From Actinomycetota bacterium (GTDB lineage Bacteria; Actinomycetota; Geothermincolia; Geothermincolales; RBG-13-55-18): a stretch of 64,000 nt of DNA. Position 1 is the first letter of the stretch; the number at the start of each line of letters is the position of its first letter. The translations under genes were made by a program, and so were the position numbers. Below the pieces are notes generated by a model, which was given only the letters and a program-made list of their open reading frames with translations, did no database searches and had not been told where the DNA came from. Below, in pieces: positions 5,680 through 64,000 of this stretch. The stretch is taken from positions 292,715 to 356,714 of the forward strand of contig JACIXC010000001.1 of the NCBI GenBank assembly GCA_014360655.1, written 5' to 3'.

Positions 5680-6669
5680 CTAGGGGATGCGCTTCCAGGA
5701 GCGCACTTCCTCCATCATCGCCTCCAGGTTCTTCAGCGGCGCTTCCGGGGGCACATCGCATCCGGTGGAGAAGACGTAGTTCCTTATCGCCTTGGTGTTC
5801 CTGAGCAGCCGCCGCGTCTCCCAGCGCACGTCCTCGGCGGTCCCGCGGTGAACAACCCTCTTGGGGTCCAGGTTGCCCAGCACGACGACGCTCCTGGGAA
5901 GGCGTTCCGCCGCCTGGGCGATGTCCATGCGCGCATCCAGGAGCACGCCGTCTCCGCCGCAGCTGCCAATCTCATCCAGGAGGTGCGTCACGTCGCCGCA
6001 TATGTGCAGCATCCCGCACGCTCCCCCCGACCTTATGATGCCGAAAAGGGCGCTGAGATAAGGGCGGTAAACGGTGCGGAAAACCCTGGTATCGAGGGCT
6101 TCCGCCACCGGGTCCACCACCATGACCACGTGCGCCCGCGAGGCAAGGGCGGCGGCGTACTCCCCCACCACGGAGGTTGCGAAGGCAAGGGCGTCCTTCA
6201 TGTCGCTTCCCTTTCCCATCTCCGCGAGCATATCCGTCGTCCCCGCGAGCTGGGAGAGAAGGGTCAGCGGGCCGGTGACGAAAGCCCCGCACAGGCCCGT
6301 CCCGTCAGCCCGCAGCTCCTCCGCCACCCTGAGAAAGAGCGGCATGCGCGCCGTCCTCTCCGGGTCCGGCGGGTCCAGCTCCATGAACCTTTCAAGGCGC
6401 GGCAGTTCCTGCTGCGCGAGGTTGGGCGGCCTTCTCTCGAAGAACTCCACATCCAGGCCGAGCGCCTCCGCCTCCACGGTCGGGTCCAGGAGCGTGAAGG
6501 TTATGTCGGGCCGCAGGCGTTCCCGCAGGGCGCGCAATGCCTCCAGCTGCACCTCGGCATCGTTTACCGCGCCGCGTACCGACTTTCCCGCCAGCCTCAC
6601 CCCGGGGTATCCCACCAGGGGAGCCGCAAGCCTGCCGCTCTGGCTCACCACCCAGTCATAGAAGTTCAT
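5680..6669 (-). CDS. Uroporphyrinogen decarboxylase (URO-D) family protein, MtaA/CmuA-like methyltransferase type
   Basis: 329-aa ORF with the overall URO-D fold signature. It starts at the ATG at 6669, which is preceded by a GGGAAGGGAAGG RBS. Confidence 0.7.
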   Translation of the reverse strand: MNFYDWVVSQSGRLAAPLVGYPGVRLAGKSVRGAVNDAEVQLEALRALRERLRPDITFTLLDPTVEAEALGLDVEFFERRPPNLAQQELPRLERFMELDPPDPERTARMPLFLRVAEELRADGTGLCGAFVTGPLTLLSQLAGTTDMLAEMGKGSDMKDALAFATSVVGEYAAALASRAHVVMVVDPVAEALDTRVFRTVYRPYLSALFGIIRSGGACGMLHICGDVTHLLDEIGSCGGDGVLLDARMDIAQAAERLPRSVVVLGNLDPKRVVHRGTAEDVRWETRRLLRNTKAIRNYVFSTGCDVPPEAPLKNLEAMMEEVRSWKRIP

Positions 6670-53843: not shown

Positions 53844-55133
53844 TCAATAGCAGGGATACCAGGGCGGCGGCTCGATCCCCGTGCCCAGGTCAACCCCGTG
53901 CCAACCCCTGGCATCCCTTTTCATGATGACCAGGGGGGCATCGATATCCTGGTTGGTGCAGAGGGCCACCCCGACCGCCTCGTTTCCCTTTATCAGCAGG
54001 CCGCTTATCTCGAACTCCAACCCCGCTGCGGCATTGGCCTTGGTGTAGGCCAGCATGGCCGCTTCCACCTCCGTAAGCCTTGACTCGTACCAGGCGGGCA
54101 GCTCCAGGTCGGTGCCCACGTCCACCCCGTGCCAACCCCTGGCATCCCTTTTCATGATGACCATGGGGGCATCGATATCCTGGTTGGTGCAGAGGGCTAA
54201 CCCGACCGCCTCGTTTCCCTTGATAAAGAGGTTGAATATCTCGAAATCCAACCCCGCTGCGGCATTGGCCTTGGTATAGGCCAGCATGGCCGCCTCCACC
54301 TCCGCCAGTTTCTCCGCTTCATCGTAGCCTTCGTCCTCGCTAACGCCGCTATCGCCGTTGTCCGTGGTCCCGTTGCGGTCCGGTTCATCCAGGCTCAGGC
54401 CTTCCAGCACATGCGGGTCGATCACCGACTCTCTAAGATAATCGCCAGACAGGTACCACTCCCCGTCCACCCTCACCAGCCGCACGGGCTCCACGTCGTC
54501 CTCTGAAGCCTCCTCGGTCACCACGTCTCCGTATTCGTCGGTATAGGTCATGGTGCCGTCCACGATGGTCACGGTTGCGGTGTCCCCGCGTATCTCGGTC
54601 TCCATCTCCCTGATCTCCACCTCCAGGTCCTCCGGGAAGTCCTGGAAGAAATAGTCCTCGAAGAAAGTCCGGTAGTTCTTTCCCAGCGCGTCCTCGAGTT
54701 CGGCGCGGAACGAAGGTTCGATGATCTCCAGGAACAGGTCCGCGTCCTGCGTCTCCATGGCGCGGTAGAATTTCCTCACCACCTCTTCGGGGCCGGAGGT
54801 GTCGCCGGTGCCGTTTCCCGCGAAGACCACGAATACCAGCACCAGGACTACGGCTATCGCCGCCAGCACCCCGATGCCGCCCATCACCCAGGGCAGGGGT
54901 GATTTTTTGGGGGTTGGGGCATAAGGAGTTGCCTGCGGGGCGGGCCCTTGCGGAAGGCCTGCGGGAGGAACCCCCGCCGGCGGGGAAGGCGGCACGTATA
55001 CCTGGTGATCGGGGGGGACAGGAGGCTGTCCCTCCTGTCCGGTGCCGGCAGATGCAGAGCTCACCGTTGCTCCACAGTAACCGCAGAACAGGCTATCGTC
55101 CGCTATCTCTTTTCCGCATTTTTCACAGAACAT
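53844..55133 (-). CDS. Zinc-ribbon membrane protein with internally duplicated C-terminal domain
   Basis: The start MFCEKCGKEI...CGYCG is preceded by GGAGGGAG. A Pro-rich linker is followed by one transmembrane segment. Two tandem copies of about 77 aa each are about 90 % identical (EVEAAMLAYTKANAAAGL.FEI...KRDARGWHGVD). Confidence 0.65.
   Translation of the reverse strand: MFCEKCGKEIADDSLFCGYCGATVSSASAGTGQEGQPPVPPDHQVYVPPSPPAGVPPAGLPQGPAPQATPYAPTPKKSPLPWVMGGIGVLAAIAVVLVLVFVVFAGNGTGDTSGPEEVVRKFYRAMETQDADLFLEIIEPSFRAELEDALGKNYRTFFEDYFFQDFPEDLEVEIREMETEIRGDTATVTIVDGTMTYTDEYGDVVTEEASEDDVEPVRLVRVDGEWYLSGDYLRESVIDPHVLEGLSLDEPDRNGTTDNGDSGVSEDEGYDEAEKLAEVEAAMLAYTKANAAAGLDFEIFNLFIKGNEAVGLALCTNQDIDAPMVIMKRDARGWHGVDVGTDLELPAWYESRLTEVEAAMLAYTKANAAAGLEFEISGLLIKGNEAVGVALCTNQDIDAPLVIMKRDARGWHGVDLGTGIEPPPWYPCY
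53884..54304. repeat. Tandem duplication of about 230 bp inside the zinc-ribbon membrane protein gene
   Basis: Two DNA copies are about 90 % identical over about 190 bp each. Confidence 0.8.
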
Positions 55134-55235
55134 CTTACGGCTCCCTCCATCACGCACGGCCCTCCTCGAGAATGCCCTGGGCCCACGCGCCTGGTCGGGT
55201 GGCAAGTCCGCGGGAGATGGGCATGGAGGCCCGCA

Positions 55236-56126
55236 TCAATATATCTTTCTCCCGCACCTACGGCAGAAACGCTCGCCGCTTCCCAGCCTGTTGCCGCACC
55301 CGGGGCAGAAAACCAGCGGCTCGGCCTCCCCCTGCACCGGCTTACCGCAAGCCCTACAGAATCTAACCCCCTCTTCCAGTTCGCTTCCGCAGGCGGCGCA
55401 GACGACCGGTGGCCTCCCTGCGGGTCTCCCGGCGTGTCTCCCACAGGCACTGCAGAAGCTTGCACCCTCCATAAGTTCCTTGCCGCAGCCGACGCAGAAA
55501 AGGCGAGCCGTGGGCGCCTGTCCTTCCGCCAGCTTCCCGGCTTCCGGTTCCTCTTCCTCGATCCCCGCAAGCTCTTTCATCTCAGCCAGAAAATCCCAGA
55601 AGGCGTCGTCCGCGGGTTGGCTGGCGGCCACGGCATCCAGCAAGCGATAGGCCTCGAGGTACTCGCCCTGCTCGGCATAAAGGCGGGCGGCGAGCAGGCA
55701 GACCAGGGGGTTCCCGGTGCCTTCGGGATCTTCGAGCACGACCTCGTATTGCTCAAGTGCGTCCTCTTTCCGGCCCTGCAATTGCAGGACCAGCGCATAA
55801 CTGGAGCGCAACGGAAGGCTGTCGGGATTGGCACCCAGGCCTATCTCGAGGTAATGCGAAGAATCTTCCATGTTGCCCTCCATGCCCGCCTTCATCCCCG
55901 CCATCCAGGTAAGGGTCTCGATGGTCCCGGCGTAGAGATCCTGGAAGTCAGGGTATTCCTCGAGGAAGACAAGGAGCTCTTCCAGGAGCAGATCTACGAG
56001 TACCTCTTCTCCTCCGAATACCTCTCGCTCCACCTCACGCCTTACGGGTACGGGCAGCAGTTCGGCCCCGTAGGCCTGCAGCGCCTGGTCCTCGAATCTG
56101 TAGAACGCGTACTCGCCCAAGTGCAT
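55236..56126 (-). CDS. TPR-like protein with three C-terminal zinc-ribbon motifs
   Basis: The three motifs are CVGCG...CSACG, CAACG...CRACG and CPGCG...CRRCG. The N-terminal region is helical and TPR-like. Confidence 0.6.
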   Translation of the reverse strand: MHLGEYAFYRFEDQALQAYGAELLPVPVRREVEREVFGGEEVLVDLLLEELLVFLEEYPDFQDLYAGTIETLTWMAGMKAGMEGNMEDSSHYLEIGLGANPDSLPLRSSYALVLQLQGRKEDALEQYEVVLEDPEGTGNPLVCLLAARLYAEQGEYLEAYRLLDAVAASQPADDAFWDFLAEMKELAGIEEEEPEAGKLAEGQAPTARLFCVGCGKELMEGASFCSACGRHAGRPAGRPPVVCAACGSELEEGVRFCRACGKPVQGEAEPLVFCPGCGNRLGSGERFCRRCGRKIY

Positions 56127-56143
56127 CTCTCCCCCGCGTCAAC

Positions 56144-58657
56144 TCAAGGCGTCAACCCCCTGTAGATATCGGCTACCTCCTTGGCCAGCTCCTCGGCAGA
56201 TGTCCCCCTGGACCTCAAGAAATCGTCCACCTCCACGGGTGAGGCGCCCCTGTTGATCATCCTGTTCATATCGTCGATGGTTCCCTCGACATCCGCGATC
56301 TTCCTGCTCACGGCGGCTGCTTTTCCCGGATTCGTCCGTTCGAGGTACTGGACACGCCCTCTTACCTGGTTGTTGAACGCCTTTACGATCTCGCGCTGTC
56401 CCAGGTAGCGTCGCTTCAGCGCCGATGTCATATCCCCTGACCTGGCTAATCTATCAGCCTCCGCGAAAGCCTCGTCAGCCTTGTATTGCATGGTCCTGCT
56501 CACCGTGTCCGTATGCGAGGTGCCCTTTCCGAGCTGCATATCCTGCCAGTCGTCCGGCGACATGCCGAAGGCCTCGGCGGAATGCCGGTCCACGGCAACG
56601 TTACGACAGTCGCGTCCCAACTGCGCCGGGGTGGTGCCCTCCGGGCTGCCCGCGGCACGGTAGAAGCTCTCGTCGTATATCTTCTGCACCTTGTCCGCGG
56701 GCACGTCGCGGATCTTGCCATCAGCTCCCTTGATGCGCACGGTAATGTCCTGGTCCATGGCTGCCTTGGCCTTGGCGCCCGGAACCTTGGGGTTGGTAGC
56801 CCTGAACACATCCACCTGATCCGGGCTTACCCCGAACTCACTCGCGATCTGCCGCCTTGCGTCCTCCATGGCCTTATCCTGAAGATCTCTCAGTTGTTTA
56901 TTGAAGCTCCTGATGACGCTCCTGTCCTTGGCGTTGAGCTTCTGGATGGCCAGGGGATCCTTCTGTATCTCCAGAATAGCCTCGGTCCGTATGCGCACGT
57001 CGCCGGACTTCATGGCTTTCTTGAACCTCTTGATCTTGGATTCCGCCTTCTGCAGATCGCTGGCCCATATCGTCTTCAACCTGCCCTTTTCGGCCTTGCC
57101 GAGTTTATCGAAGAGCCCTGGTTTCGCCTTTACCTTTCTGACCCTGGCAAGGTCGTCGAGCTTATCGTCCACGAGCCCTGCCGCCCTGGCGGCATCGTCC
57201 AACTTGTCTTTGCCGGCCGAGATCAGGGCCTTGCCCGCTTGCCTGCTCCCCCCTCCGAAGAGCCACCTGCCGAGCCCCGAGATACCCTCGAGCAGGCCGA
57301 TGGTGTTCAAGGTCGCCAGGGCCGAATAGGCGAAGCGGTCTGGCAGGGGCTTGTTGGGATCTATGGCGTTTTTCCACAGCTCCGTTCCCAGGATGGTCTT
57401 CAACGTGCCGAGAGGGTCCTGCAATACGGGAATGATGATATTCTCGGCGATGTACTTGGTGGCATCTTTCTTGGCTTCCTCCAGGTCCATGACGGGCTTA
57501 AACGGATCCTTCAGGCTGTTTGCGAAGTATTCCACCGCTGCCTCCGCCTGTTCCTTTTTCCACTTTTCGAAGTTCTCGTGCGTTTTTTTGATCTTGTCCA
57601 TCATGTCCTTGAGGTTTTCCACGTCGGTAACCCCATCCCATATCCATTTGGCCTTATCTGAGAGATAACCGGGGACGGTCTCGACATCGTCCCCGATGTT
57701 CCTTATGGTCTGGACGAGCACGTTCTCCGGCGCTTGCTGGTATGGATCCACCTGGGAGGAAAAGGGCTCCGCGGTACCGCCGGCGATTCCCGCCGGAAAC
57801 GGCTCCATGCCCGGGGGAGCCGCGGGTGGCGATGCAGGCTTTCCGGGAGGGGCCAGCGGCGTGACGGGCACGGGCGGCAGCGCGAGGAGCGAATTAAGAA
57901 ATCCTGTCACCGCCGCGATGATGCCGGCTATCACCGTGCCTACAAGCCATTTCCACCAGCTCCCGGGCCCCGGTATCTTGCCGGCTTCACCCTCCCTCTC
58001 GCTCTCTCCACCAGGCGTCGAGACGACATCCCCACCGGGACCCACTTCCACCCACCCCGACTGGTGTTCATAAGAAGCCAGCGTCTCCTCGAGGGTAGCC
58101 TCCATCTCGGAGACCGCCCTTTCCATCCCCGAACCGTATTTATCAGGCGGGATCTCGACCTCCACGCTGTCGCTCTTGGTGTTGCCGGTACCGGTCTCTT
58201 CCAGTGGCTGATCGGTCCCACCCACCCACGACGTCGACTCCAGGAAGGCTACGTCATTATATAAGATCTTGTCTGCAGCCGATTCATCCAGGGGTACGAT
58301 CATGCCGTCCTTGACGACTGCCTTGGTGGATGTGGTGTAGATGACGTACAGGTAATATCTCACGAATACCGTTCCGTCGTCGTGTTTCACTATCTCGGTG
58401 GTCTTTACCGTCTTTACTATCTTGAACGGGGGATCGCTCATTATTTCTCCCGTCATAAAACATGCCATATCCCCCTCCCCGTTTCTTATTTTCTCGATGA
58501 AATCCTCAGCCTGTTCTTCCGTCGGGGGCTTGATATTGTCCGCGAAACAGGGGCTGGAGCAGGAGAGCATGATGGCTCCGGTCAAAGAGATCAAGACGGC
58601 CAGGGCGAGCGGCCAGGGTGGCCGCCATGTTCCGCCCAACCGTCCCGGTATCGCCAT
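56144..58657 (-). CDS. Large (838 aa) signal-peptide/membrane-anchored protein of unknown function
   Basis: The N-terminal signal reads LALAVLISLTGAIMLSCSS. An internal hydrophobic helix reads WWKWLVGTVIAGIIAAVTGFLNSLL. A Pro-rich linker follows. The long helical C-terminal half has no recognisable family. Confidence 0.55.
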   Translation of the reverse strand: MAIPGRLGGTWRPPWPLALAVLISLTGAIMLSCSSPCFADNIKPPTEEQAEDFIEKIRNGEGDMACFMTGEIMSDPPFKIVKTVKTTEIVKHDDGTVFVRYYLYVIYTTSTKAVVKDGMIVPLDESAADKILYNDVAFLESTSWVGGTDQPLEETGTGNTKSDSVEVEIPPDKYGSGMERAVSEMEATLEETLASYEHQSGWVEVGPGGDVVSTPGGESEREGEAGKIPGPGSWWKWLVGTVIAGIIAAVTGFLNSLLALPPVPVTPLAPPGKPASPPAAPPGMEPFPAGIAGGTAEPFSSQVDPYQQAPENVLVQTIRNIGDDVETVPGYLSDKAKWIWDGVTDVENLKDMMDKIKKTHENFEKWKKEQAEAAVEYFANSLKDPFKPVMDLEEAKKDATKYIAENIIIPVLQDPLGTLKTILGTELWKNAIDPNKPLPDRFAYSALATLNTIGLLEGISGLGRWLFGGGSRQAGKALISAGKDKLDDAARAAGLVDDKLDDLARVRKVKAKPGLFDKLGKAEKGRLKTIWASDLQKAESKIKRFKKAMKSGDVRIRTEAILEIQKDPLAIQKLNAKDRSVIRSFNKQLRDLQDKAMEDARRQIASEFGVSPDQVDVFRATNPKVPGAKAKAAMDQDITVRIKGADGKIRDVPADKVQKIYDESFYRAAGSPEGTTPAQLGRDCRNVAVDRHSAEAFGMSPDDWQDMQLGKGTSHTDTVSRTMQYKADEAFAEADRLARSGDMTSALKRRYLGQREIVKAFNNQVRGRVQYLERTNPGKAAAVSRKIADVEGTIDDMNRMINRGASPVEVDDFLRSRGTSAEELAKEVADIYRGLTP

Positions 58658-58665
58658 GCCCTTCA

Positions 58666-59151
58666 TTACGCGACCGCCTTGCTGAAGATGGCCGAGTAGG
58701 CTATCCAGATGCCGGAGAAGACAAAAGACCCTGCCATGGGGATGACCATGAGGCGCATCTGCTGACCGGATGAGCGCATCAGCTCGGCCCCCACCGCCGC
58801 TCCCGAGGTCATGATGGTCGCCTGGATGAAGGCGGTGGCCGCGTTCCAGCCGAAGGCGAGGTCCGCCAGGAGGGCGAGCGCGGTGAAGGGTATGGCGATG
58901 AGGTAGCCCCGCGCCACGGCGTCAAGGCCTCCCACATACCCCGGTCCCCGGCGTAGGGGGGGATGGACCGCCAGCACCAGGCCGGCGAGGCCGGCCAGGC
59001 AGGCCGCTATGACGAGCAGGCCCAGGATCGTGTAGAGGGCTACCTGGCCCGCGCCCACAACGACGTACCTGCCGTTGAGCCATGCCAGGACGGTGAAGCA
59101 GGCCAGGATGAGCAGGCCGCAAACGATCCTCTCCGTCAGTGCTCTGTCCAC
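58666..59151 (-). CDS. Integral membrane protein (about 5 TM)
   Basis: The GTG start is preceded by TAGGAGG. The protein is hydrophobic throughout. Confidence 0.5.
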   Translation of the reverse strand: MDRALTERIVCGLLILACFTVLAWLNGRYVVVGAGQVALYTILGLLVIAACLAGLAGLVLAVHPPLRRGPGYVGGLDAVARGYLIAIPFTALALLADLAFGWNAATAFIQATIMTSGAAVGAELMRSSGQQMRLMVIPMAGSFVFSGIWIAYSAIFSKAVA

Positions 59152-59164
59152 GGCGTTTCGCCTC

Positions 59165-59674
59165 CTATATCCCCAGCAAGGCCCAACCGCAGAGGATAAG
59201 CGCCCCGCAGATGGTGGAGAGGGTCAGGGAGGCTATCACCTTCTCCCCGGTCATCTCCCGGCAAATGGCAATGATAGGGTACAGCGCCCAAAGTGCCCCG
59301 GTGATCCCGAAGGCCACGGCGGTGTTCCAGCCCGCGGTCAGGTTTGCGATCAACCCCACCAAGCAGAAGATGAGGGTAGGGGTGTAGGCGAGGCAGAAAG
59401 CCCGCACCGTCCACCCCAGGGAGCGGTCGTTTCCGAAGAGGCGCGAAGCGGCCCAGGCCAGCGCCGCCACCAGGGCTACCCCTGCGGTGCCCATGGCGGT
59501 TCCCAGGAAGGTGAAGCCCACCGCGGCCCCGGTGCTTGCGGTGCCCACGCGGTGCATGTCCAAGCCGGTCTGCAGGAAGAAGAGGGTGAAAGAAATCCCG
59601 GATATGGCGAGGCAGAAGGGCCAGGGGATGCTCTCCATGGCTCCCTTCAGCACCCGGGTGGGGTTCAAGATCAT
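59165..59674 (-). CDS. Integral membrane protein (Yip1-like topology); start uncertain
   Basis: Five hydrophobic segments. Several in-frame starts exist (59824 TTG, 59674, 59634) and none has a strong RBS. Confidence 0.4.
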   Translation of the reverse strand: MILNPTRVLKGAMESIPWPFCLAISGISFTLFFLQTGLDMHRVGTASTGAAVGFTFLGTAMGTAGVALVAALAWAASRLFGNDRSLGWTVRAFCLAYTPTLIFCLVGLIANLTAGWNTAVAFGITGALWALYPIIAICREMTGEKVIASLTLSTICGALILCGWALLGI

Positions 59675-59862
59675 GGAAAGGGCTGTACTCAGTGACGAAG
59701 ATGCTCTTGTGCCCGCAACCTCCACTCCCCGCTCCTTGATGTCGTTGCCCCCAGATGTTCTGTGGCATCCCCGAAACATGGCACGGTATATCCATATCAT
59801 CTCAATTCTTAGGGGATATTTCAACAGGACACGCTACCGTTGGCAGCGCGTAAGATAGATCT

Positions 59863-60273
59863 GTGGGCACAAATTCCTTGAAGCTATCTCTAGTGATAGA
59901 CGGGCCCCTACTCGAGCCGCTCAATATCGACGCCGACACGCCCCTGGAAATAACCACCAACGGAGAGGCGTTGATCATCACGCCCGTGCGCGATAAGAAG
60001 CGCCGTCAGGACTTCGAGGCAGCCCTGGAGAAAGCCGATCGCCAGTACGGCAGGATGCTCAAGAACCTGGCGGGCTGGATTGCCGGGCTTGTATCCCTTA
60101 CCCTGGCCCGGGTGATCGAGATACACCGGGACCAGATGTGTCGCTGCGGCGGCAGCCCCGGCACACGAGACCTCGATCTTCTTAAACCCGCCCTGACCAC
60201 GCCCCGGGCTGGCATGGGAGGGCAATATATCAAGGGATCCGGCTTAAGAAAAAGGCCACGAGGGGCCCGTTGA
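59863..60273 (+). pseudogene. Decayed TA locus: AbrB/SpoVT-type antitoxin-like N-terminus fused in-frame to the first 45 aa of a Doc/Fic-type toxin, then truncated
   Basis: Residues 20-75 resemble AbrB-family antitoxins (LEITTNGEALIITPV...ALEKADRQYGRMLKNLA). They continue without a stop into LTLARVIEIHRDQMCRCGGSPGTRDLDLLKPALTTPRAGMGGQY, which matches the Doc N-terminal pattern (iH..li..fGG..GiRD.glLesAl.rP). The Doc core HxFxDGNKR is absent. The ORF ends 2 bp before direct repeat 1. Confidence 0.5.
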
Positions 60274-60275
60274 TC

Positions 60276-60308
60276 GGTGGGCGTTAAGGGATCTGGAAGA
60301 CCTTTCCC
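60276..60308 (+). repeat. 33-bp direct repeat, copy 1 (GGTGGGCGTTAAGGGATCTGGAAGACCTTTCCC)
   Basis: Matches 61075-61107 at 30 of 33 positions. Together the copies flank the RHH/RelE cassette. Confidence 0.85.
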
Positions 60309-60465
60309 TGTTTACTGTCCTGCTTGAGATGGGTATTACGCCGCCGGCAAAGGAGGATTCACATGGTGCGTCACCTCGATGGGATAGGATGATATCTATA
60401 GGCATGGTAAAATACATGTGATACAATAACATACATAGAATACTTACTGGGATCGGAGGTACAAA

Positions 60466-60684
60466 GTGAGTAAGGCGATCTCGATCAGGCTGGATGAACA
60501 GGTGTTGAAAGAACTGGAGGACCTGTCTAGGGCAACGGAGCGCTCCCGTACCTTTCTCATCAATGAGGCCATAAAGACTTACATTGCGGAATACGGCGAT
60601 TACCGCGTGGCGCTCGACCGTCTCCTGGATAAGGACGATGAGCTGATCAGCGGCTCGGAGCTGAGGAGAAGGCTTGGGCTTTAA
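60466..60684 (+). CDS. RHH-type antitoxin (RelB/DinJ/ParD/CopG family)
   Basis: The GTG start is preceded by GGAGGT. It begins with an RHH beta-strand (MSKAISIRLDEQVLKELEDLSRATERSRTFLINEAIKTYI). Its 3' end overlaps the toxin gene. Confidence 0.75.
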   Translation: MSKAISIRLDEQVLKELEDLSRATERSRTFLINEAIKTYIAEYGDYRVALDRLLDKDDELISGSELRRRLGL

Positions 60685-60928
60685 GGTAGTATACAAAGCC
60701 TCGGTCGAGAAGGATCTCAAGAAGATAGATAAAGCCGAGGCGAAAAGGATCTTGAACGGAATAGAAGGCGACTTGGCGAAGGATCCCGATAAGGGAGCTG
60801 CCTTAAGCGGAACATTCCAGGGGTTATACAGATACAGGATCGGCGATCACAGGGTCATATACGCCAAGACGATTGATGGGGTATTGGTGTTGCGCATCGG
60901 CCACAGAAAAGACATCTATCGCGTCTAG
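60674..60928 (+). CDS. RelE/ParE-family toxin
   Basis: 84 aa. The sequence fits the RelE/ParE pattern (...KDLKKI...GLYRYRIGDHRVIYAKTIDGVLVLRIGHRKDIYR). A TTG start overlaps the antitoxin stop. Confidence 0.75.
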   Translation: MGFKVVYKASVEKDLKKIDKAEAKRILNGIEGDLAKDPDKGAALSGTFQGLYRYRIGDHRVIYAKTIDGVLVLRIGHRKDIYRV

Positions 60929-61074
60929 GATGAAGCCGGTGATCAAGCCGGAATGAGGAGTCGCCAGACGGGTATGCGAGGCAAGTCGGAAACTGTAGAA
61001 GCCGTTAATTGGCGGACTGGCAGATACGCCAGAGATATTAGGAAGCCGGGCACAGAGCCCGGCTTCTATTGCTT

Positions 61075-61107
61075 TGGTGGGCGTTAAGGGACTTGGAAGA
61101 CCTATCC
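61075..61107 (+). repeat. 33-bp direct repeat, copy 2 (GGTGGGCGTTAAGGGACTTGGAAGACCTATCCC)
   Basis: See copy 1. It ends 37 bp before the stop of the HEPN-like gene. Confidence 0.85.
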
Positions 61108-61143
61108 CCACTAGTAGTCCTCGATGAGGTGGTATGAACGGCT

Positions 61144-62550
61144 TCAGCTTTCCTGCACCAAGACCCCCCTGAGCTTGGTCTTATGCAACTTGCTTAGCGG
61201 CCCCTCAATGATTTTTATCTTCTCCTTTTCAATCATCGATGCATCAATGAGGTCTATAAGGTCCTTCTTTTGGAGGTTTAGAAATGCAGCCACTAAGATG
61301 GAAATTCGAAGAATGTTGGCCAGACTTCGCATATAAAGCCGTATATCGCCCCGCCGATTTTCAAACCTCCTTCTTTCTTTTTCATCCAATAGCTCCCCAT
61401 GAACATATCTACTTCTGATATCGTATGCATCATTTATCTCGTCCTGTATTTCATTTGCATTAAATCCCAACATGGAAAACAGCTTTGCGACTCTGCTCTT
61501 CAGGCGATACTTCAGCTCCATGTTCTCTTGCAGGAAAAGGCTCTCCATGCCCATGACAAGGTTGGCAATTCTCGCCTCCTCTCTGTTCCCCCTTAACAGA
61601 TAATCACAATAGGACGAATAAGCAATTGACAAATGTATTGACGTCTTATCGGAGAAGCTGAGTTTCTCCCAAAGCCGCATCTTGCGACACTCATTCCAAA
61701 ATTTACGGAGTATGCGGAAATCGCTTTCTTGTAAAACGTATTCTTCATATACGGATATGAGCGATATTGGTCCTATTTGTTTACCCGGATAGTATTTGGC
61801 AACAGAGTCCGTGTACTTATGATCACGAATTCTTTGAACACTACCTACCCGGAATAGCCTTAAAACCGTTTCAGCTAATTGGATGTCTTCCTCTAAGCCG
61901 ACGGTATCATAATAGTCGCCCTTAATCTCCAGAATCATTGTTGGATTCATAAAATCATCGAATTGCAAGTGTTCGTAGGCAGCGACTTTCTTCTCTAGGT
62001 CCTTTGCCGTTAACTGCCTTAGAATGAAGGTGGTTCCATCTATAATGAATTTCTTCCTAACTGTTAGAATCGAAACACCCAATAACTCTGATATCGAATG
62101 ATGTTTCCTGGGCTTTTTGTTCAAGTCTTTGATACATGAGCCAACCAATTTGGCCACGTATCTTTTGTCCAACCTCCCTTTCTTAAGAACGTCCTCCGAT
62201 AAAAAGTGCATGAAATTCCATAACAACCATTGCTCTACATTGTCGTTATCTGGAAATAAGCCTCTCAGGGTGCGTACGGAATCTTTGTAGGCGCTCTGTT
62301 TTATGTACTCCTTTACGAAACGATTCGCTTCGCCCGCGAATGATTCCCTACAATATTCTTGATAGTTGATGCCATCGCATTTTAGTTTGCCATCATCATT
62401 CATTGGCTGTGGCGGCTTTCTGGATATATACGATTGCTTCGATTTATTTAATCTCCCCTCCCGGATTAGGCATTCCAATTCATGGGCGATATTTCCTGCA
62501 AGTTCCATCAGGCAATTTGTTGCGGCTTCTTCTCGGGATAGCCGTGCCAT
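61144..62550 (-). CDS. 468-aa protein with C-terminal HEPN-like domain (Rx4HG motif), Abi/ApeA-like; low-GC
   Basis: The C-terminal 150 aa show the HEPN pattern (...MESLFL...E.KYRLKSRVAKLFSML...IQDEINDAYDIRSRYVHGEL..., where R-S-R-Y-V-H is Rx4H). The N-terminal 300 aa match no family I recognise. GC is about 40 % versus about 66 % for the flanks. It lies 12 nt downstream of the GGCT-like gene. Confidence 0.6.
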   Translation of the reverse strand: MARLSREEAATNCLMELAGNIAHELECLIREGRLNKSKQSYISRKPPQPMNDDGKLKCDGINYQEYCRESFAGEANRFVKEYIKQSAYKDSVRTLRGLFPDNDNVEQWLLWNFMHFLSEDVLKKGRLDKRYVAKLVGSCIKDLNKKPRKHHSISELLGVSILTVRKKFIIDGTTFILRQLTAKDLEKKVAAYEHLQFDDFMNPTMILEIKGDYYDTVGLEEDIQLAETVLRLFRVGSVQRIRDHKYTDSVAKYYPGKQIGPISLISVYEEYVLQESDFRILRKFWNECRKMRLWEKLSFSDKTSIHLSIAYSSYCDYLLRGNREEARIANLVMGMESLFLQENMELKYRLKSRVAKLFSMLGFNANEIQDEINDAYDIRSRYVHGELLDEKERRRFENRRGDIRLYMRSLANILRISILVAAFLNLQKKDLIDLIDASMIEKEKIKIIEGPLSKLHKTKLRGVLVQES

Positions 62551-62564
62551 AACCCATCAACCTT

Positions 62565-63035
62565 TCATTGTGGTGCCCGCAACCTTTTCAACATCTCAAG
62601 ATAATCTTCGGGCAGTTCCCAATGCGTTGCCCCGGATATAATATGGCGTAAATAGTCTTCAGCAGGAGTATGCTCTTTGTCAGATTTATTTGCAGCAACA
62701 TAGATGAATGCTCCTAACGGTCGATCTTCATCTCCATTCACAAGCACGCTGGTGCAACAACGCTCGTAGGCGTTATTCTCACCCTTGCCATAATAGCCCT
62801 CATAGGTATCGAGTCTCTTCAATTCCTCTTTCGAGATGTCATATACAACCCCCCAAACACCCGGGCTGGCATCATCCTCTACGACATCGGCAACCCAGCT
62901 TCTGCGCTTTTCTGAATATCTCGTGAATGCGAGCCGGAAGCGCGGGAGAAGGGCCAGGCATCTGAATTGGTAGGATGGGCAACGCTCCTTCATCTGCTTG
63001 GGGTCCAAGTTGGAGCCGTAGGCGAAGTACAGCAT
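62565..63035 (-). CDS. Gamma-glutamyl cyclotransferase-like (GGCT/AIG2-like) protein
   Basis: The N-terminus MLYFAYGSNL is the hallmark YGSNL motif of GGCT/AIG2 folds. A strong AAAGGAGGTG RBS precedes the ATG. The catalytic-Glu candidate cannot be confidently assigned by eye; checking it is the first test. Confidence 0.65.
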   Translation of the reverse strand: MLYFAYGSNLDPKQMKERCPSYQFRCLALLPRFRLAFTRYSEKRRSWVADVVEDDASPGVWGVVYDISKEELKRLDTYEGYYGKGENNAYERCCTSVLVNGDEDRPLGAFIYVAANKSDKEHTPAEDYLRHIISGATHWELPEDYLEMLKRLRAPQ

Positions 63036-64000
63036 CTTCCCACCTCCTTTTACCTTCTGATTATATATGCTGCCGAAGACAGACTCTTGCTATGCCTTTA
63101 TCGCCGGGCGAATCGCGGCATTGCCGGCGTCCCATCGATGTCTCGCCTTGCGGGGCATTGCTATCTTCCCCCATAAAACACAGGCGCGCATGGCTTCGCC
63201 TTCCCCCTCGCCTCGCCGGGCACCGCTCACCTATCCCGGCCCTCCCGGGAGAGGCGGAGGCCGCGCCTCGCGGCGCCCCGCCTTGCGGGGCACGGATGGG
63301 CCTCCCCGCAAGGCGCACCAGCGTGGGGCTTCGCCCCATCGCGCCCGGCCTCGCCCATCCCATGCGGCGAGGCCAGCCCCTTGCCGGGCTTCGCGTCACG
63401 GCTTGCGGCGAAGCCCGGCCGGCCCGGCATGGCGGATGCGATCCGCGCATCGCCGGGAGGCGAGGCGCAAGCCTTGGAGGAACGTGCAAACGGCTTTGAG
63501 CCTGGCTGGCGCGCACGCATAGTACGCAAGCTGTGTGGAAATAAGCCCATCGCATCACGCATGACGGTGCCGTTCATGGGAGGATAGGTGGAGGAGTTTG
63601 AGGGGGTTGCGGAGCCGAGCGCGGCCGTTTTCCGGGGGGTTTCCCCGCCCCGCAGGCATGGCCTCTGGGCTGGGATTATGCCCTTCCCGGCCCTCCCGCT
63701 CCCGGCGCCGTTTTTTTTAGCCGCTCTGCGTGGGGAACATTTGGCCTCGCATACGGTCGCCCCTTTTCCCCACCTAGTTCCCAGCCTTCTTCCCTATAAG
63801 CATCTGCGCACCGCCCCGCCGAAATCTTGTGGCCACATTCTCACATGGCGATTCGGTTGCCTGCCCGCGGATGGCCGCTCGGGGTTCCCTGCGGCCGAGA
63901 GGTGCCGGAACGAGCCTCTGCTAAACGCAAGAAAACAAAAGTAAAACCCAGAAAACCCCAAAAACTACAAAAACCCCAAAAACCAAAAAAGATAAAACAT

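What the first reader, a model, noticed from the sequence alone, without database searches (positions are those of the whole stretch)
61110..63060. Low-GC two-gene module: GGCT/AIG2-like enzyme + large HEPN-like protein, embedded among TA cassettes. Candidate undescribed defence / abortive-infection system
Two tightly linked co-directional genes (12-nt gap) sit in a roughly 2-kb tract whose GC (about 40-55 %) is far below the 66 % host background. The upstream gene has an unmistakable gamma-glutamyl-cyclotransferase N-terminus (MLYFAYGSNL). The downstream 468-aa protein ends in a HEPN-type Rx4HG ribonuclease motif, with a 300-aa N-terminal region matching nothing I recognise. HEPN RNases are classic abortive-infection and toxin effectors, and GGCT-fold enzymes cleave gamma-glutamyl/amide-linked small molecules. 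A GGCT+HEPN pairing is not a named system I know of. The module sits immediately beside a RelBE cassette and a decayed Doc locus, the typical mosaic context of defence islands. The island ends about 25 bp upstream of the GGCT gene start.
Basis: partly seen in the sequence, partly recalled or inferred. Interest (0 to 1): 0.8.

Follow-up and report, generated by a model that had tools for sequence, protein, structure and literature searches.

The report
Low-GC GGCT plus HEPN defence cassette
A foreign-looking 2-kb insert carries an intact gamma-glutamyl cyclotransferase gene and a large HEPN ribonuclease-type gene; both kinds of gene turn up in anti-phage islands, but the two are not a conserved pair, so this is probably a solo suicide RNase with an unrelated accessory enzyme beside it.

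Summary
Two co-directional minus-strand genes lie 14 nt apart: GGCT (62565-63035) and a 468-aa ORF (61144-62550). Together they form the lowest-GC stretch of the window (0.44 against 0.64).

Gene 1 is a human-type gamma-glutamyl cyclotransferase with its catalytic Glu intact.

Gene 2 has a new N-terminal domain and a C-terminal HEPN fold. Its Rx4HG motif is invariant. It belongs to a large unnamed family (7,747 representative clusters) with no Pfam, PADLOC or NCBIfam model.

- None of 9 distinct homologue contexts of the HEPN protein has a GGCT neighbour.
- None of 241 GGCT-anchored loci has this HEPN family.
- The only other copies of the pair are 100% identical DNA, that is, the same organism.

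Both genes are nevertheless defence-island genes. HEPN homologues sit inside a type I R-M operon. The GGCT clade is embedded in Hma/DUF499 operons (16/39 against 2/118 loci, p=1e-9) and in plasmid defence islands. I found no paper describing that association.

An 83%-identical GGCT gene precedes a different effector, a P-loop NTPase. A role for GGCT as a shared accessory therefore stays open.

Best reading: an ApeA-like solo abortive-infection RNase next to an accessory GGCT.

The parts
62565..63035 (-). GGCT gene: 156-aa gamma-glutamyl cyclotransferase of the human C7orf24 type. It has the YGSN substrate motif and the catalytic Glu79.
   Evidence: ORF. Pfam GGACT/AIG2_2. The clade profile matches human GGCT 2pn7/2i5t at E=5e-30, and E79 aligns with Glu98 (3cry, the E98Q mutant, shows Q at that column). 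Invariant Y6 G7 S8 N9. phrog_2520 hit at 1e-17.
61144..62550 (-). 468-aa 'sensor + HEPN' gene. The longer ATG at 62550 is preferred over the NCBI start 14 codons downstream.
   Evidence: ORF. Homologues align from residue 1. There is no Pfam, PADLOC or NCBIfam hit. The family has 7,747 representative clusters at E<=1e-3, nearly all full length at about 450 aa. AF2 model: pLDDT 85, pTM 0.84.
61657..62550 (-). N-terminal domain (aa 1-298), mixed alpha/beta plus a helical bundle. Presumed sensor or regulatory part. Conserved G158, D184, and LRLFRVGSV (aa 230-238).
61147..61653 (-). C-terminal HEPN domain (aa about 300-468).
61396..61416 (-). Codons for the R379-S-R-Y-V-H384-G385 motif (Rx4HG), the predicted RNase active site.
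   Evidence: R379, H384 and G385 are invariant in 61 sequences that share only 18-30% identity with the window protein.
63041..63081 (-). Upstream expression signals of the cassette: Shine-Dalgarno AAGGAGGTG (63049-63041), a -10-like TATAAT (63065-63060) and a conserved TGTCTT (63081-63076).
   Evidence: Sequence. The same elements are conserved upstream of the 83%-identical GGCT in L018. The promoter role is inferred. The sigma-70 scan did not call it because no -35 lies at the canonical spacing.
62551..62564 (-). 14-nt spacer between the GGCT stop and the HEPN start, with no terminator. This implies co-transcription.
   Evidence: The only terminator-like hit nearby is a 5-bp stem inside GGCT, which is no better than chance.
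61041..61067 (+). GC-rich hairpin (11 pairs) between the convergent RelE-type gene and the HEPN gene. A possible two-way terminator that closes the cassette.
   Evidence: Homology of the 87.5%-identical HEPN gene in L013 ends at 61149, that is, at the stop codon.

Best explanation
The tract is a horizontally acquired cassette of about 2 kb. It expresses two defence-island genes from one upstream signal, but they are not an obligate pair.

Gene 2, the 468-aa protein, is the effector. It is a single-chain 'sensor + HEPN' RNase from a large, unnamed family whose members normally stand alone, sometimes inside type I R-M operons. It most likely works like ApeA or PrrC:
- The 300-aa N-terminal domain keeps the HEPN domain silent.
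- An infection cue relieves this. The cue could be a small molecule, a phage protein, or loss of a partner.
- Two HEPN domains pair to form the composite Rx4H site.
- The enzyme then cuts tRNA or other cellular RNA. Translation stops and the infection aborts.

Gene 1 is a catalytically competent gamma-glutamyl cyclotransferase. Its clade travels as an accessory gene in Hma/DUF499 (BREX-related) operons and other defence islands. Here it probably adds a separate enzymatic function, cleavage of a gamma-glutamyl amide in a still unknown small molecule, rather than being needed by the RNase.

Shown: gene structure, foreign composition, GGCT identity and catalytic residues, HEPN fold and motif, family size, lack of pair conservation, and the defence contexts of both families.

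Inferred: RNase activity, activation by infection, abortive outcome, co-transcription, and any role of GGCT.
For: Composition and anatomy.

HEPN evidence:
- Rx4HG is invariant in 61 divergent sequences.
- Sub-threshold Pfam HEPN hits occur in 6 of 61 members: RiboL-PSP, Apea and MAE_28990.

The HEPN family is large and full-length: 7,747 clusters, 907 of them at E<=1e-30.

Solo habit and defence context of homologues:
- L002/L003 overlap hsdS by 4 nt inside a type I R-M operon, next to DUF4062 and Hypoth_Ymh genes.
- L012 follows an NTP_transf_2 gene and a 144-aa ORF with no Pfam hit.
- L010 follows a Trypco1 gene.
- L008 lies near a PycTM gene.
- No context has a GGCT.

GGCT evidence:
- Intact enzyme.
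- Its clade is embedded, often with 4-nt overlaps, in Hma operons: PADLOC HmaA 2e-175, HmaB 1e-106 to 1e-116, HmaC 4e-91.
- Hma genes occur in 16/39 in-clade loci against 2/118 outside, p=1.4e-9.
- It also sits beside DruE, SMODS, PIN_12, AAA_14/DUF4143 and AAA_21 genes.
- It sits in plasmid defence islands with QatA, ABC-3C, an AAA+S8 pair and a multiubiquitin/ThiF pair.

Precedent for a sensor-HEPN single-gene defence comes from the ApeA preprint 10.64898/2026.01.26.701840 and from Anantharaman et al. 2013, PMC3710099.
Against: - No experiment exists on any member of either family.
- No Pfam HEPN model reaches threshold for the window protein.
- The N-terminal domain has no informative structural relative, so 'sensor' is an analogy.
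- Only 9 distinct contexts of HEPN homologues could be inspected, out of thousands. Some are in housekeeping surroundings (L004).
- The tight 14-nt linkage and shared upstream signals argue for more than chance adjacency. So does the parallel GGCT-led cassette in L018, which has the same GC pattern and a different effector.
- Part of the GGCT clade lies in ordinary metabolic neighbourhoods.
Confidence: 0.55

Rival explanations
1. A true two-component system with a constant enzyme and a swappable effector. GGCT makes or destroys a gamma-glutamyl-linked small molecule, or releases 5-oxoproline or an amine. The N-terminal domain of the downstream effector reads that molecule. The effector is the HEPN RNase here, a P-loop NTPase in L018, and Hma components elsewhere.
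For: - The gap is 14 nt and the upstream signals are shared.
- The closest GGCT relative with visible context (L018, 83.5% nt identity, conserved TATAAT and SD) again sits 21 nt upstream of a large low-GC gene, an 808-aa P-loop NTPase beside a type I R-M system.
- GGCT overlaps Hma genes by 4 nt at several operon positions.
- ApeA shows that HEPN defence proteins can be switched on by small molecules.
- The helical bundle of the N-terminal domain weakly resembles the ligand-binding domains of TetR regulators.
Against: - 0 of 9 HEPN-family contexts has a GGCT.
- 0 of 241 GGCT loci has this HEPN family.
- GGCT is a bare 156-aa enzyme with no sensing module.
- Clade members also occur next to DUF748/AsmA, UvrA, Nramp and MFS genes.
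- Only two contexts are known in the window's own subclade.
Confidence: 0.2
2. A toxin-antitoxin pair in which the upstream GGCT neutralises the HEPN toxin, taking the place that MNT holds in HEPN-MNT modules.
Against: - Homologues of the HEPN protein live without any GGCT and mostly without any small upstream partner.
- GGCT occurs with many unrelated neighbours and by itself.
- Where a canonical HEPN sits beside GGCT (L021), it has its own MNT.
- No chemistry is known by which a cyclotransferase would neutralise an RNase.
Confidence: 0.05
3. Not defence. The genes are cargo of a decayed mobile element: a metabolic GGCT for gamma-glutamyl peptide recycling and a HEPN-fold protein with a housekeeping or RNA-processing role, or a GGCT carried by mobile elements for their own benefit (a phage or plasmid 'moron').
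For: - GGCT relatives are common in viral contigs (440 stretches).
- They occur in Bacillus phages and match phrog_2520, which is classed as moron/AMG.
- One plasmid copy sits right after an orphan DNA methyltransferase, beside parA.
- Some clade members and one HEPN homologue lie among housekeeping genes.
Against: - The enrichment of the GGCT clade inside Hma operons is strong.
- HEPN homologues sit inside an R-M operon and beside other conflict genes.
- The invariant Rx4H site argues for an active nuclease.
Confidence: 0.15

Closest known systems
ApeA (single-gene HEPN anti-phage protein; Pfam HEPN_Apea PF18739)
   Same: One polypeptide with a roughly 300-aa N-terminal non-catalytic region and a C-terminal HEPN with an Rx4-6H site. 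A solo gene, sometimes embedded in R-M operons (PMC3710099; L002/L003). ApeA cleaves tRNA anticodon loops and is switched on by a small ligand bound away from the active site. This is the working model proposed here.
   Different: The window protein has no HEPN_Apea or PADLOC hit; only 2 of 61 relatives hit HEPN_Apea, both sub-threshold. ApeA is mostly helical, with N, Mid and split-HEPN domains, and is about 580 aa. This protein is 468 aa with a beta-rich N-terminal region and a compact HEPN. Oligomeric state and ligand are unknown.
PrrC/RloC and Abi-type HEPN proteins (AbiD/F, AbiJ, AbiU2) linked to R-M systems
   Same: HEPN RNases that act as a suicidal back-up to restriction and are encoded inside R-M operons (PMC3710099). 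The homologue in L002/L003 overlaps hsdS.
   Different: There is no ABC-ATPase or other known N-terminal module, and no profile match to those families. In the window itself no R-M genes are visible within about 9 kb.
HEPN-MNT type II toxin-antitoxin modules
   Same: The HEPN fold is closest to the minimal HEPN toxins and HEPN domains (4nqf, 2hsb, 7ae2, 8xdj, 5yep). A small gene lies upstream.
   Different: The upstream gene is a GGCT, not a nucleotidyltransferase. The HEPN protein is three times larger and has its own N-terminal domain. Its homologues lack a fixed partner.
Hma / DUF499-centred BREX-related (BR type 1) systems with auxiliary effectors
   Same: The GGCT clade is embedded in these operons among HmaA, HmaB and HmaC, alongside inserted PIN, HEPN-MNT, PD-(D/E)xK-like and SMODS genes. 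This matches the 'auxiliary and backup effector' layer described in PMC12839542.
   Different: No Hma gene is seen near the window's GGCT (sequence beyond 64000 is not available). That paper and its supplements do not mention a cyclotransferase.
Human gamma-glutamyl cyclotransferase (C7orf24; PDB 2pn7, 2i5t, 3cry)
   Same: Full-length profile match at E=5e-30. It has the same N-terminal YFAYGSNL motif and the same catalytic Glu.
   Different: A bacterial, mobile, defence-island setting. The gamma-glutamyl cycle is not known to operate here, and the substrate is unknown.

Membership tests
GGCT / AIG2-like gamma-glutamyl cyclotransferases | Profile match above the curated threshold | tested here: met
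   Pfam GGACT 55.3 bits (cut-off 22.8) and AIG2_2 54 bits (cut-off 27). Human GGCT structures match at E=5e-30.
GGCT / AIG2-like gamma-glutamyl cyclotransferases | N-terminal YGS(N/L) substrate-binding motif and the catalytic glutamate (human Glu98) | tested here: met
   The protein starts MLYFAYGSNL. Y6, G7, S8 and N9 are invariant in 34 sequences. E79 aligns with Glu98, and the E98Q mutant 3cry has Q at that column.
GGCT / AIG2-like gamma-glutamyl cyclotransferases | Formation of 5-oxoproline from a gamma-glutamyl substrate | not testable with these tools
   Needs an enzyme assay.
HEPN superfamily | Conserved Rx4-6H motif | tested here: met
   R379-x4-H384-G385 is invariant in 12 and in 61 sequences.
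HEPN superfamily | Helical HEPN fold | tested here: met
HEPN superfamily | Match to a curated HEPN sequence model | tested here: not met
   The window protein has no hit at E<=10. Among 61 relatives there are only sub-threshold hits: HEPN_RiboL-PSP in 3 (best 5e-4), HEPN_Apea in 2 and HEPN_MAE_28990 in 1.
HEPN superfamily | Metal-independent RNase activity | not testable with these tools
   Needs biochemistry.
ApeA | HEPN_Apea / PADLOC ApeA profile match | tested here: not met
ApeA | Helical N-terminal and Mid domains plus a split HEPN with insertions | tested here: not met
   The model has beta-rich N-terminal subdomains and a compact HEPN of about 165 aa. Compare the description of Ec2ApeA. 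Foldseek against PDB found no whole-chain match.
HEPN-MNT toxin-antitoxin | Adjacent minimal nucleotidyltransferase partner | tested here: not met
   The upstream gene is GGCT. No NTP_transf_2 is recorded among the Pfam entries for the flanking genes.
   0 of 9 distinct HEPN-homologue contexts. 0 of 157 plus 84 GGCT-anchored loci. The only other pairs are 100% identical to the window. One unrelated canonical HEPN, which has its own MNT, lies beside a GGCT in L021.
Hma / BR type 1 system | SNF2 helicase + DUF1156 methylase + DUF499 ATPase in the locus | tested here: not met
   None is recorded among the Pfam entries for genes of window 54443-63791 (L014). Sequence beyond 64000 is not available.

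The most novel reading that the evidence does not exclude
This GGCT clade is a new class of accessory enzyme of anti-phage immunity. It is a small gamma-glutamyl cyclotransferase that moves with its own expression signals and docks upstream of, or inside, many different defence modules. These include the sensor-HEPN RNase here, a P-loop NTPase in L018, Hma/BREX-related operons, and islands with DruE, SMODS, Qat and ABC-3C genes. It would act by making or removing a gamma-glutamyl-linked metabolite that either signals infection to the effector or disarms a phage counter-measure. In that reading the GGCT+HEPN cassette would be one instance of a constant-enzyme, variable-effector system.
Probability: 0.15. 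Interest if true: 0.8.

Novelty: new variant of a known kind. Interest (0 to 1): 0.5.

Why it matters
If the 468-aa protein is an infection-triggered RNase, it adds a large family to the single-gene HEPN defences. That family has thousands of clusters, mostly from uncultured bacteria, and no model in Pfam, PADLOC or NCBIfam. It also carries a new N-terminal domain whose trigger is unknown, so current defence finders miss it.

Separately, a human-type gamma-glutamyl cyclotransferase clade sits inside Hma/BREX-related operons and plasmid defence islands. I found no paper reporting this. If the association is functional, it would bring gamma-glutamyl chemistry into phage defence and give a handle on the poorly understood BREX-like mechanisms.

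The specific claim of a GGCT+HEPN system should not be carried forward as it stands.

Tried and rejected
- Pfam, PADLOC and NCBIfam on the 468-aa protein and on 12 and 61 relatives gave no significant family.
- Sequence searches of PDB with the protein and with its profile gave only noise.
- Foldseek of the whole model against PDB gave nothing. The afdb50 library was unavailable.
- The word-indexed protein search suggested a tiny family of 13 hits. That was misleading: the exhaustive profile search found 7,747 clusters.
- The HEPN family was searched in viral contigs and in plasmids with three queries. There were no usable hits.
- I tested whether the 808-aa L018 protein or the 299-aa L101 protein is related to the HEPN protein. 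Neither is.
- I looked for a tRNA, tmRNA or other RNA gene as an integration site next to the island. None was found.
- I looked for flanking direct repeats around the two-gene cassette. None was found; the only repeat pair brackets the RelBE cassette.
- 'Decayed Doc' was not confirmed.
- I looked for a canonical sigma-70 promoter upstream of GGCT. The scan did not call one, and only a -10-like TATAAT and the SD are conserved.
- Literature searches linking cyclotransferase/GGCT/AIG2 with anti-phage defence found nothing relevant. The BREX/BR survey and its supplements do not mention it.
Full report
**1. What is there**

Two ORFs lie head to tail on the minus strand.
- ORF 1 is 62565..63035 (156 aa, MLYFAYGSNL...).
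- ORF 2 is 61144..62550 (468 aa).
- They are separated by 14 nt.

The pair has GC 0.444 against 0.637 for the window. It is the lowest-GC 1.9-kb stretch of the window, about 4 sd below the mean. GC3 is 0.49-0.54 against 0.75-0.80 in neighbouring genes.

A strong Shine-Dalgarno (AAGGAGGTG) and a TATAAT box lie just upstream of ORF 1. Nothing better than chance looks like a terminator between the genes. A GC-rich hairpin lies beyond ORF 2, between it and the convergent RelE-type gene.

Four public contigs carrying the same GGCT gene are 100% identical in DNA to the window: three carry the pair or part of it (L014-L016) and the fourth (L017) ends just inside the HEPN gene. They come from one organism, an actinobacterial MAG, sampled several times.

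**2. Gene 1 is a real gamma-glutamyl cyclotransferase**

- Pfam GGACT and AIG2_2 both pass threshold.
- A profile of the clade matches the human GGCT crystal structures over the full length at E=5e-30.
- The window's E79 falls on the catalytic Glu98. The E98Q mutant structure shows Q in that column.
- The YGSN motif is invariant.
- No PADLOC or NCBIfam model covers it. It does match phage family phrog_2520.

**3. Gene 2 is a HEPN protein of a large unnamed family**

No Pfam, PADLOC or NCBIfam family matches it. The word-indexed search found only 13 relatives. An exhaustive profile search of 1.84 billion cluster representatives found 7,747 at E<=1e-3 and 907 at E<=1e-30, nearly all full length at about 450 aa.

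In 61 sequences that share only 18-30% identity with the window protein, the following are invariant: D184, E336, Y376, R379, H384, G385 and R415.

Pfam HEPN models give only sub-threshold hits, in 6 of 61 relatives.

Homologues align from the first residue of the 468-aa reading. The NCBI start, 14 codons downstream, is therefore probably too short.

**4. Is the pair a system?**

I looked at the surroundings of every homologue of gene 2 that had usable flanks. None has a GGCT.
- L002/L003: the gene overlaps hsdS by 4 nt inside a type I R-M operon, beside DUF4062 and Hypoth_Ymh genes.
- L012: it follows an NTP_transf_2 gene and a 144-aa ORF with no Pfam hit.
- L010/L011: it follows a Trypco1 gene.
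- L008: a PycTM gene lies nearby.
- L001: it is next to a CoiA-type nuclease gene.
- L005-L007: large unknown genes and a TnpB lie nearby.
- L004: housekeeping genes surround it in Leptolyngbya.
- L009: the surrounding genes have no Pfam hit on record.
- L013 (87.5% nt identity) starts inside the gene, so its upstream side is unknown. Its homology ends at the stop codon.

In the other direction, I fetched 160 loci anchored on GGCT relatives from genomes and metagenomes, 80 from viral contigs and 4 from plasmids. HMMs of the whole HEPN family, and of its C-terminal domain alone, find no member in any of them.

**5. An unexpected result: the GGCT clade lives in defence loci**

Many of the closest GGCT relatives (42-50% identity) are tightly linked to large genes, often with 4-nt overlaps. 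PADLOC and Pfam identify these as HmaA (SNF2 helicase with a NOV_C nuclease domain), HmaB (DUF1156 methylase) and HmaC (DUF499 ATPase). These are the Hma system, also called BREX-related type 1.

BLAST mapping shows Hma genes co-directional with GGCT in 16 of 39 loci of the clade, against 2 of 118 outside it (Fisher p=1.4e-9).

GGCT occupies different slots in these operons, between A and B or between B and C. It is often accompanied by other inserted genes:
- PIN_12 (L108).
- A 320-aa protein with a weak, sub-threshold HSDR_N hit (L104, L113, L114).
- SMODS (L100).
- AAA_14/DUF4143 (L030).
- A complete MNT-HEPN pair (L021).

Other clade members sit beside a DruE helicase and a PLD-like gene (L109), an AAA_21 ATPase (L130) or a HATPase_c_4 protein (L101).

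More distant relatives on rhizobial plasmids lie in islands with QatA, an ABC-3C system, an AAA+S8-peptidase pair, a multiubiquitin/ThiF operon and caspase-like genes. One lies directly after an orphan DNA methyltransferase.

The association is not absolute. Some clade members neighbour DUF748/AsmA, UvrA, Nramp or MFS genes, and relatives are frequent in phages.

The recent survey of BREX and BR/Hma systems lists HEPN, PIN, PD-(D/E)xK, Schlafen and OLD auxiliary effectors. It does not mention a cyclotransferase in either the text or the held supplements. Full-text searches found no paper linking GGCT to phage defence.

**6. The window's own GGCT subclade**

The window protein groups with P0015-P0022 (58-79% identity). 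In a neighbour-joining tree (no support values computed) this group is a sister branch to the Hma-rich clade.

Only one other context is visible, L018/L019. There the GGCT gene is 83.5% identical in DNA. The similarity starts about 31 nt upstream of the ATG by blastn, and TGTCTT, TATAAT and GGAGGTG are conserved by eye up to about 50 nt upstream. It ends 12 nt before the stop.

The downstream gene, 21 nt away, is an unrelated 808-aa P-loop NTPase with weak AAA_22/ATPase_2/ORC-CDC6-like/NACHT hits and no PADLOC hit. The locus also holds a type I R-M system and a Replic_Relax gene.

The GC pattern repeats that of the window: GGCT 0.50, effector 0.40, upstream genes about 0.62.

So the GGCT gene with its expression signals behaves as a unit placed in front of different large low-GC genes. 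This keeps a 'constant enzyme, variable effector' model alive, but it rests on two cases.

**7. Most likely mechanism**

By architecture and context, the 468-aa protein most resembles the single-gene HEPN defences. ApeA is a HEPN protein whose N-terminal and Mid domains are, with the HEPN domain, part of a ligand pocket. It cleaves tRNA anticodon loops when 5'-phosphorylated deoxydinucleotides bind. ApeA, PrrC/RloC and several Abi HEPN proteins are embedded in R-M operons.

I therefore propose an infection-activated RNase. Its HEPN domains dimerise to form the Rx4H site and shut down translation.

It is not an ApeA family member. It has no profile match and a different N-terminal fold and size.

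GGCT is probably an independent accessory. It is an active enzyme with no sensor, it is found with many partners and also alone, and its substrate is unknown.

Steps shown: identities, folds, motifs, distributions.

Steps inferred: RNase activity, trigger, abortive outcome, co-transcription, and any GGCT role.

**8. Verdict**

Novelty: a new variant of a known kind, namely a sensor-HEPN single-gene defence with a new N-terminal domain. There is also a separately interesting, apparently unreported link between a GGCT clade and Hma/BREX-related operons and defence islands.

Interest is 0.5.

Noticed in passing
L020, L021, L025, L030, L043, L055, L100, L104-L108, L111, L113, L114, L120 (GGCT at about 6001-6470 or as listed): A clade of human-type GGCT genes is embedded, often with 4-nt overlaps, inside Hma / DUF499-DUF1156-SNF2 (BREX-related type 1) operons at varying positions. 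Hma genes occur in 16/39 in-clade loci against 2/118 outside (p=1.4e-9). It is not mentioned in the BR/BREX survey or in any paper I could find.
   Followed up: partly
L018 8001-10922 (also L019): A GGCT gene 83.5% identical in DNA to the window's is followed 21 nt later by an 808-aa P-loop NTPase. That protein has weak AAA_22/ORC-CDC6-like/NACHT hits and no PADLOC hit. The locus also carries a type I R-M system and a Replic_Relax gene. It is a second GGCT-led low-GC two-gene cassette and a candidate defence gene.
   Followed up: partly
L021 728-1949: A complete MNT (728-1057) plus canonical HEPN (PF05168, 1e-25; ORF 975-1454) toxin-antitoxin pair sits directly upstream of GGCT, between HmaA and HmaB. 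This is the only other HEPN/GGCT adjacency found. It involves an unrelated HEPN family.
   Followed up: partly
L260-L263 (plasmids NZ_CP033509.1, CP090118.1, NZ_CP050306.1, NZ_CP119976.1): GGCT relatives (38-42% identity) on rhizobial plasmids lie in variable defence islands. Neighbours include QatA, ABC-3C with HNH, an AAA+S8 peptidase pair, multiubiquitin+ThiF, caspase-like genes and a recurring RHE_PE00001-family gene. On one 23.8-kb plasmid the GGCT lies directly after an orphan DNA methyltransferase and before parA.
   Followed up: partly
window 60276-60332 and 61076-61132: A 57-nt direct repeat (75% identical overall, with the first 28 nt differing at two positions) brackets the RelBE-type cassette (RHH_1 + ParE_toxin, 60466-60928). 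There are only two copies in the window. It is possibly a cassette junction or a duplicated target.
   Followed up: partly
window 59863-60273: This ORF has an AbrB/MazE-like N-terminus by eye and ends exactly where the first 57-nt repeat starts.
   Followed up: partly
window 63100-63600: A very GC-rich (up to 0.75) stretch with no credible ORF lies just upstream of the island. It contains CGCCTTGCGGGGCA three times at 65-70 nt spacing and a 25-nt inverted repeat. There is no tRNA or Rfam match.
   Followed up: partly
window 63943-63990: A tandem repeat of a 9-nt unit (AAAACCCCA-like, about 5 copies) lies at the very end of the window.
   Followed up: no
window 62509-62550: The public annotation of the HEPN gene (P0001, 454 aa) starts 14 codons downstream of the ATG at 62550. 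Homologues align from the longer start.
   Followed up: yes
L002 1286-8158 (also L003): A homologue of the 468-aa protein overlaps hsdS by 4 nt in a type I R-M locus. The locus also holds Trypsin_2, DUF4062 and Hypoth_Ymh genes, so it is a dense defence island.
   Followed up: no
window 56144-58666: An 840-aa minus-strand ORF has a signal-peptide-like N-terminus, no Pfam family on record, and is followed by Yip1-like membrane proteins. It was not examined.
   Followed up: no
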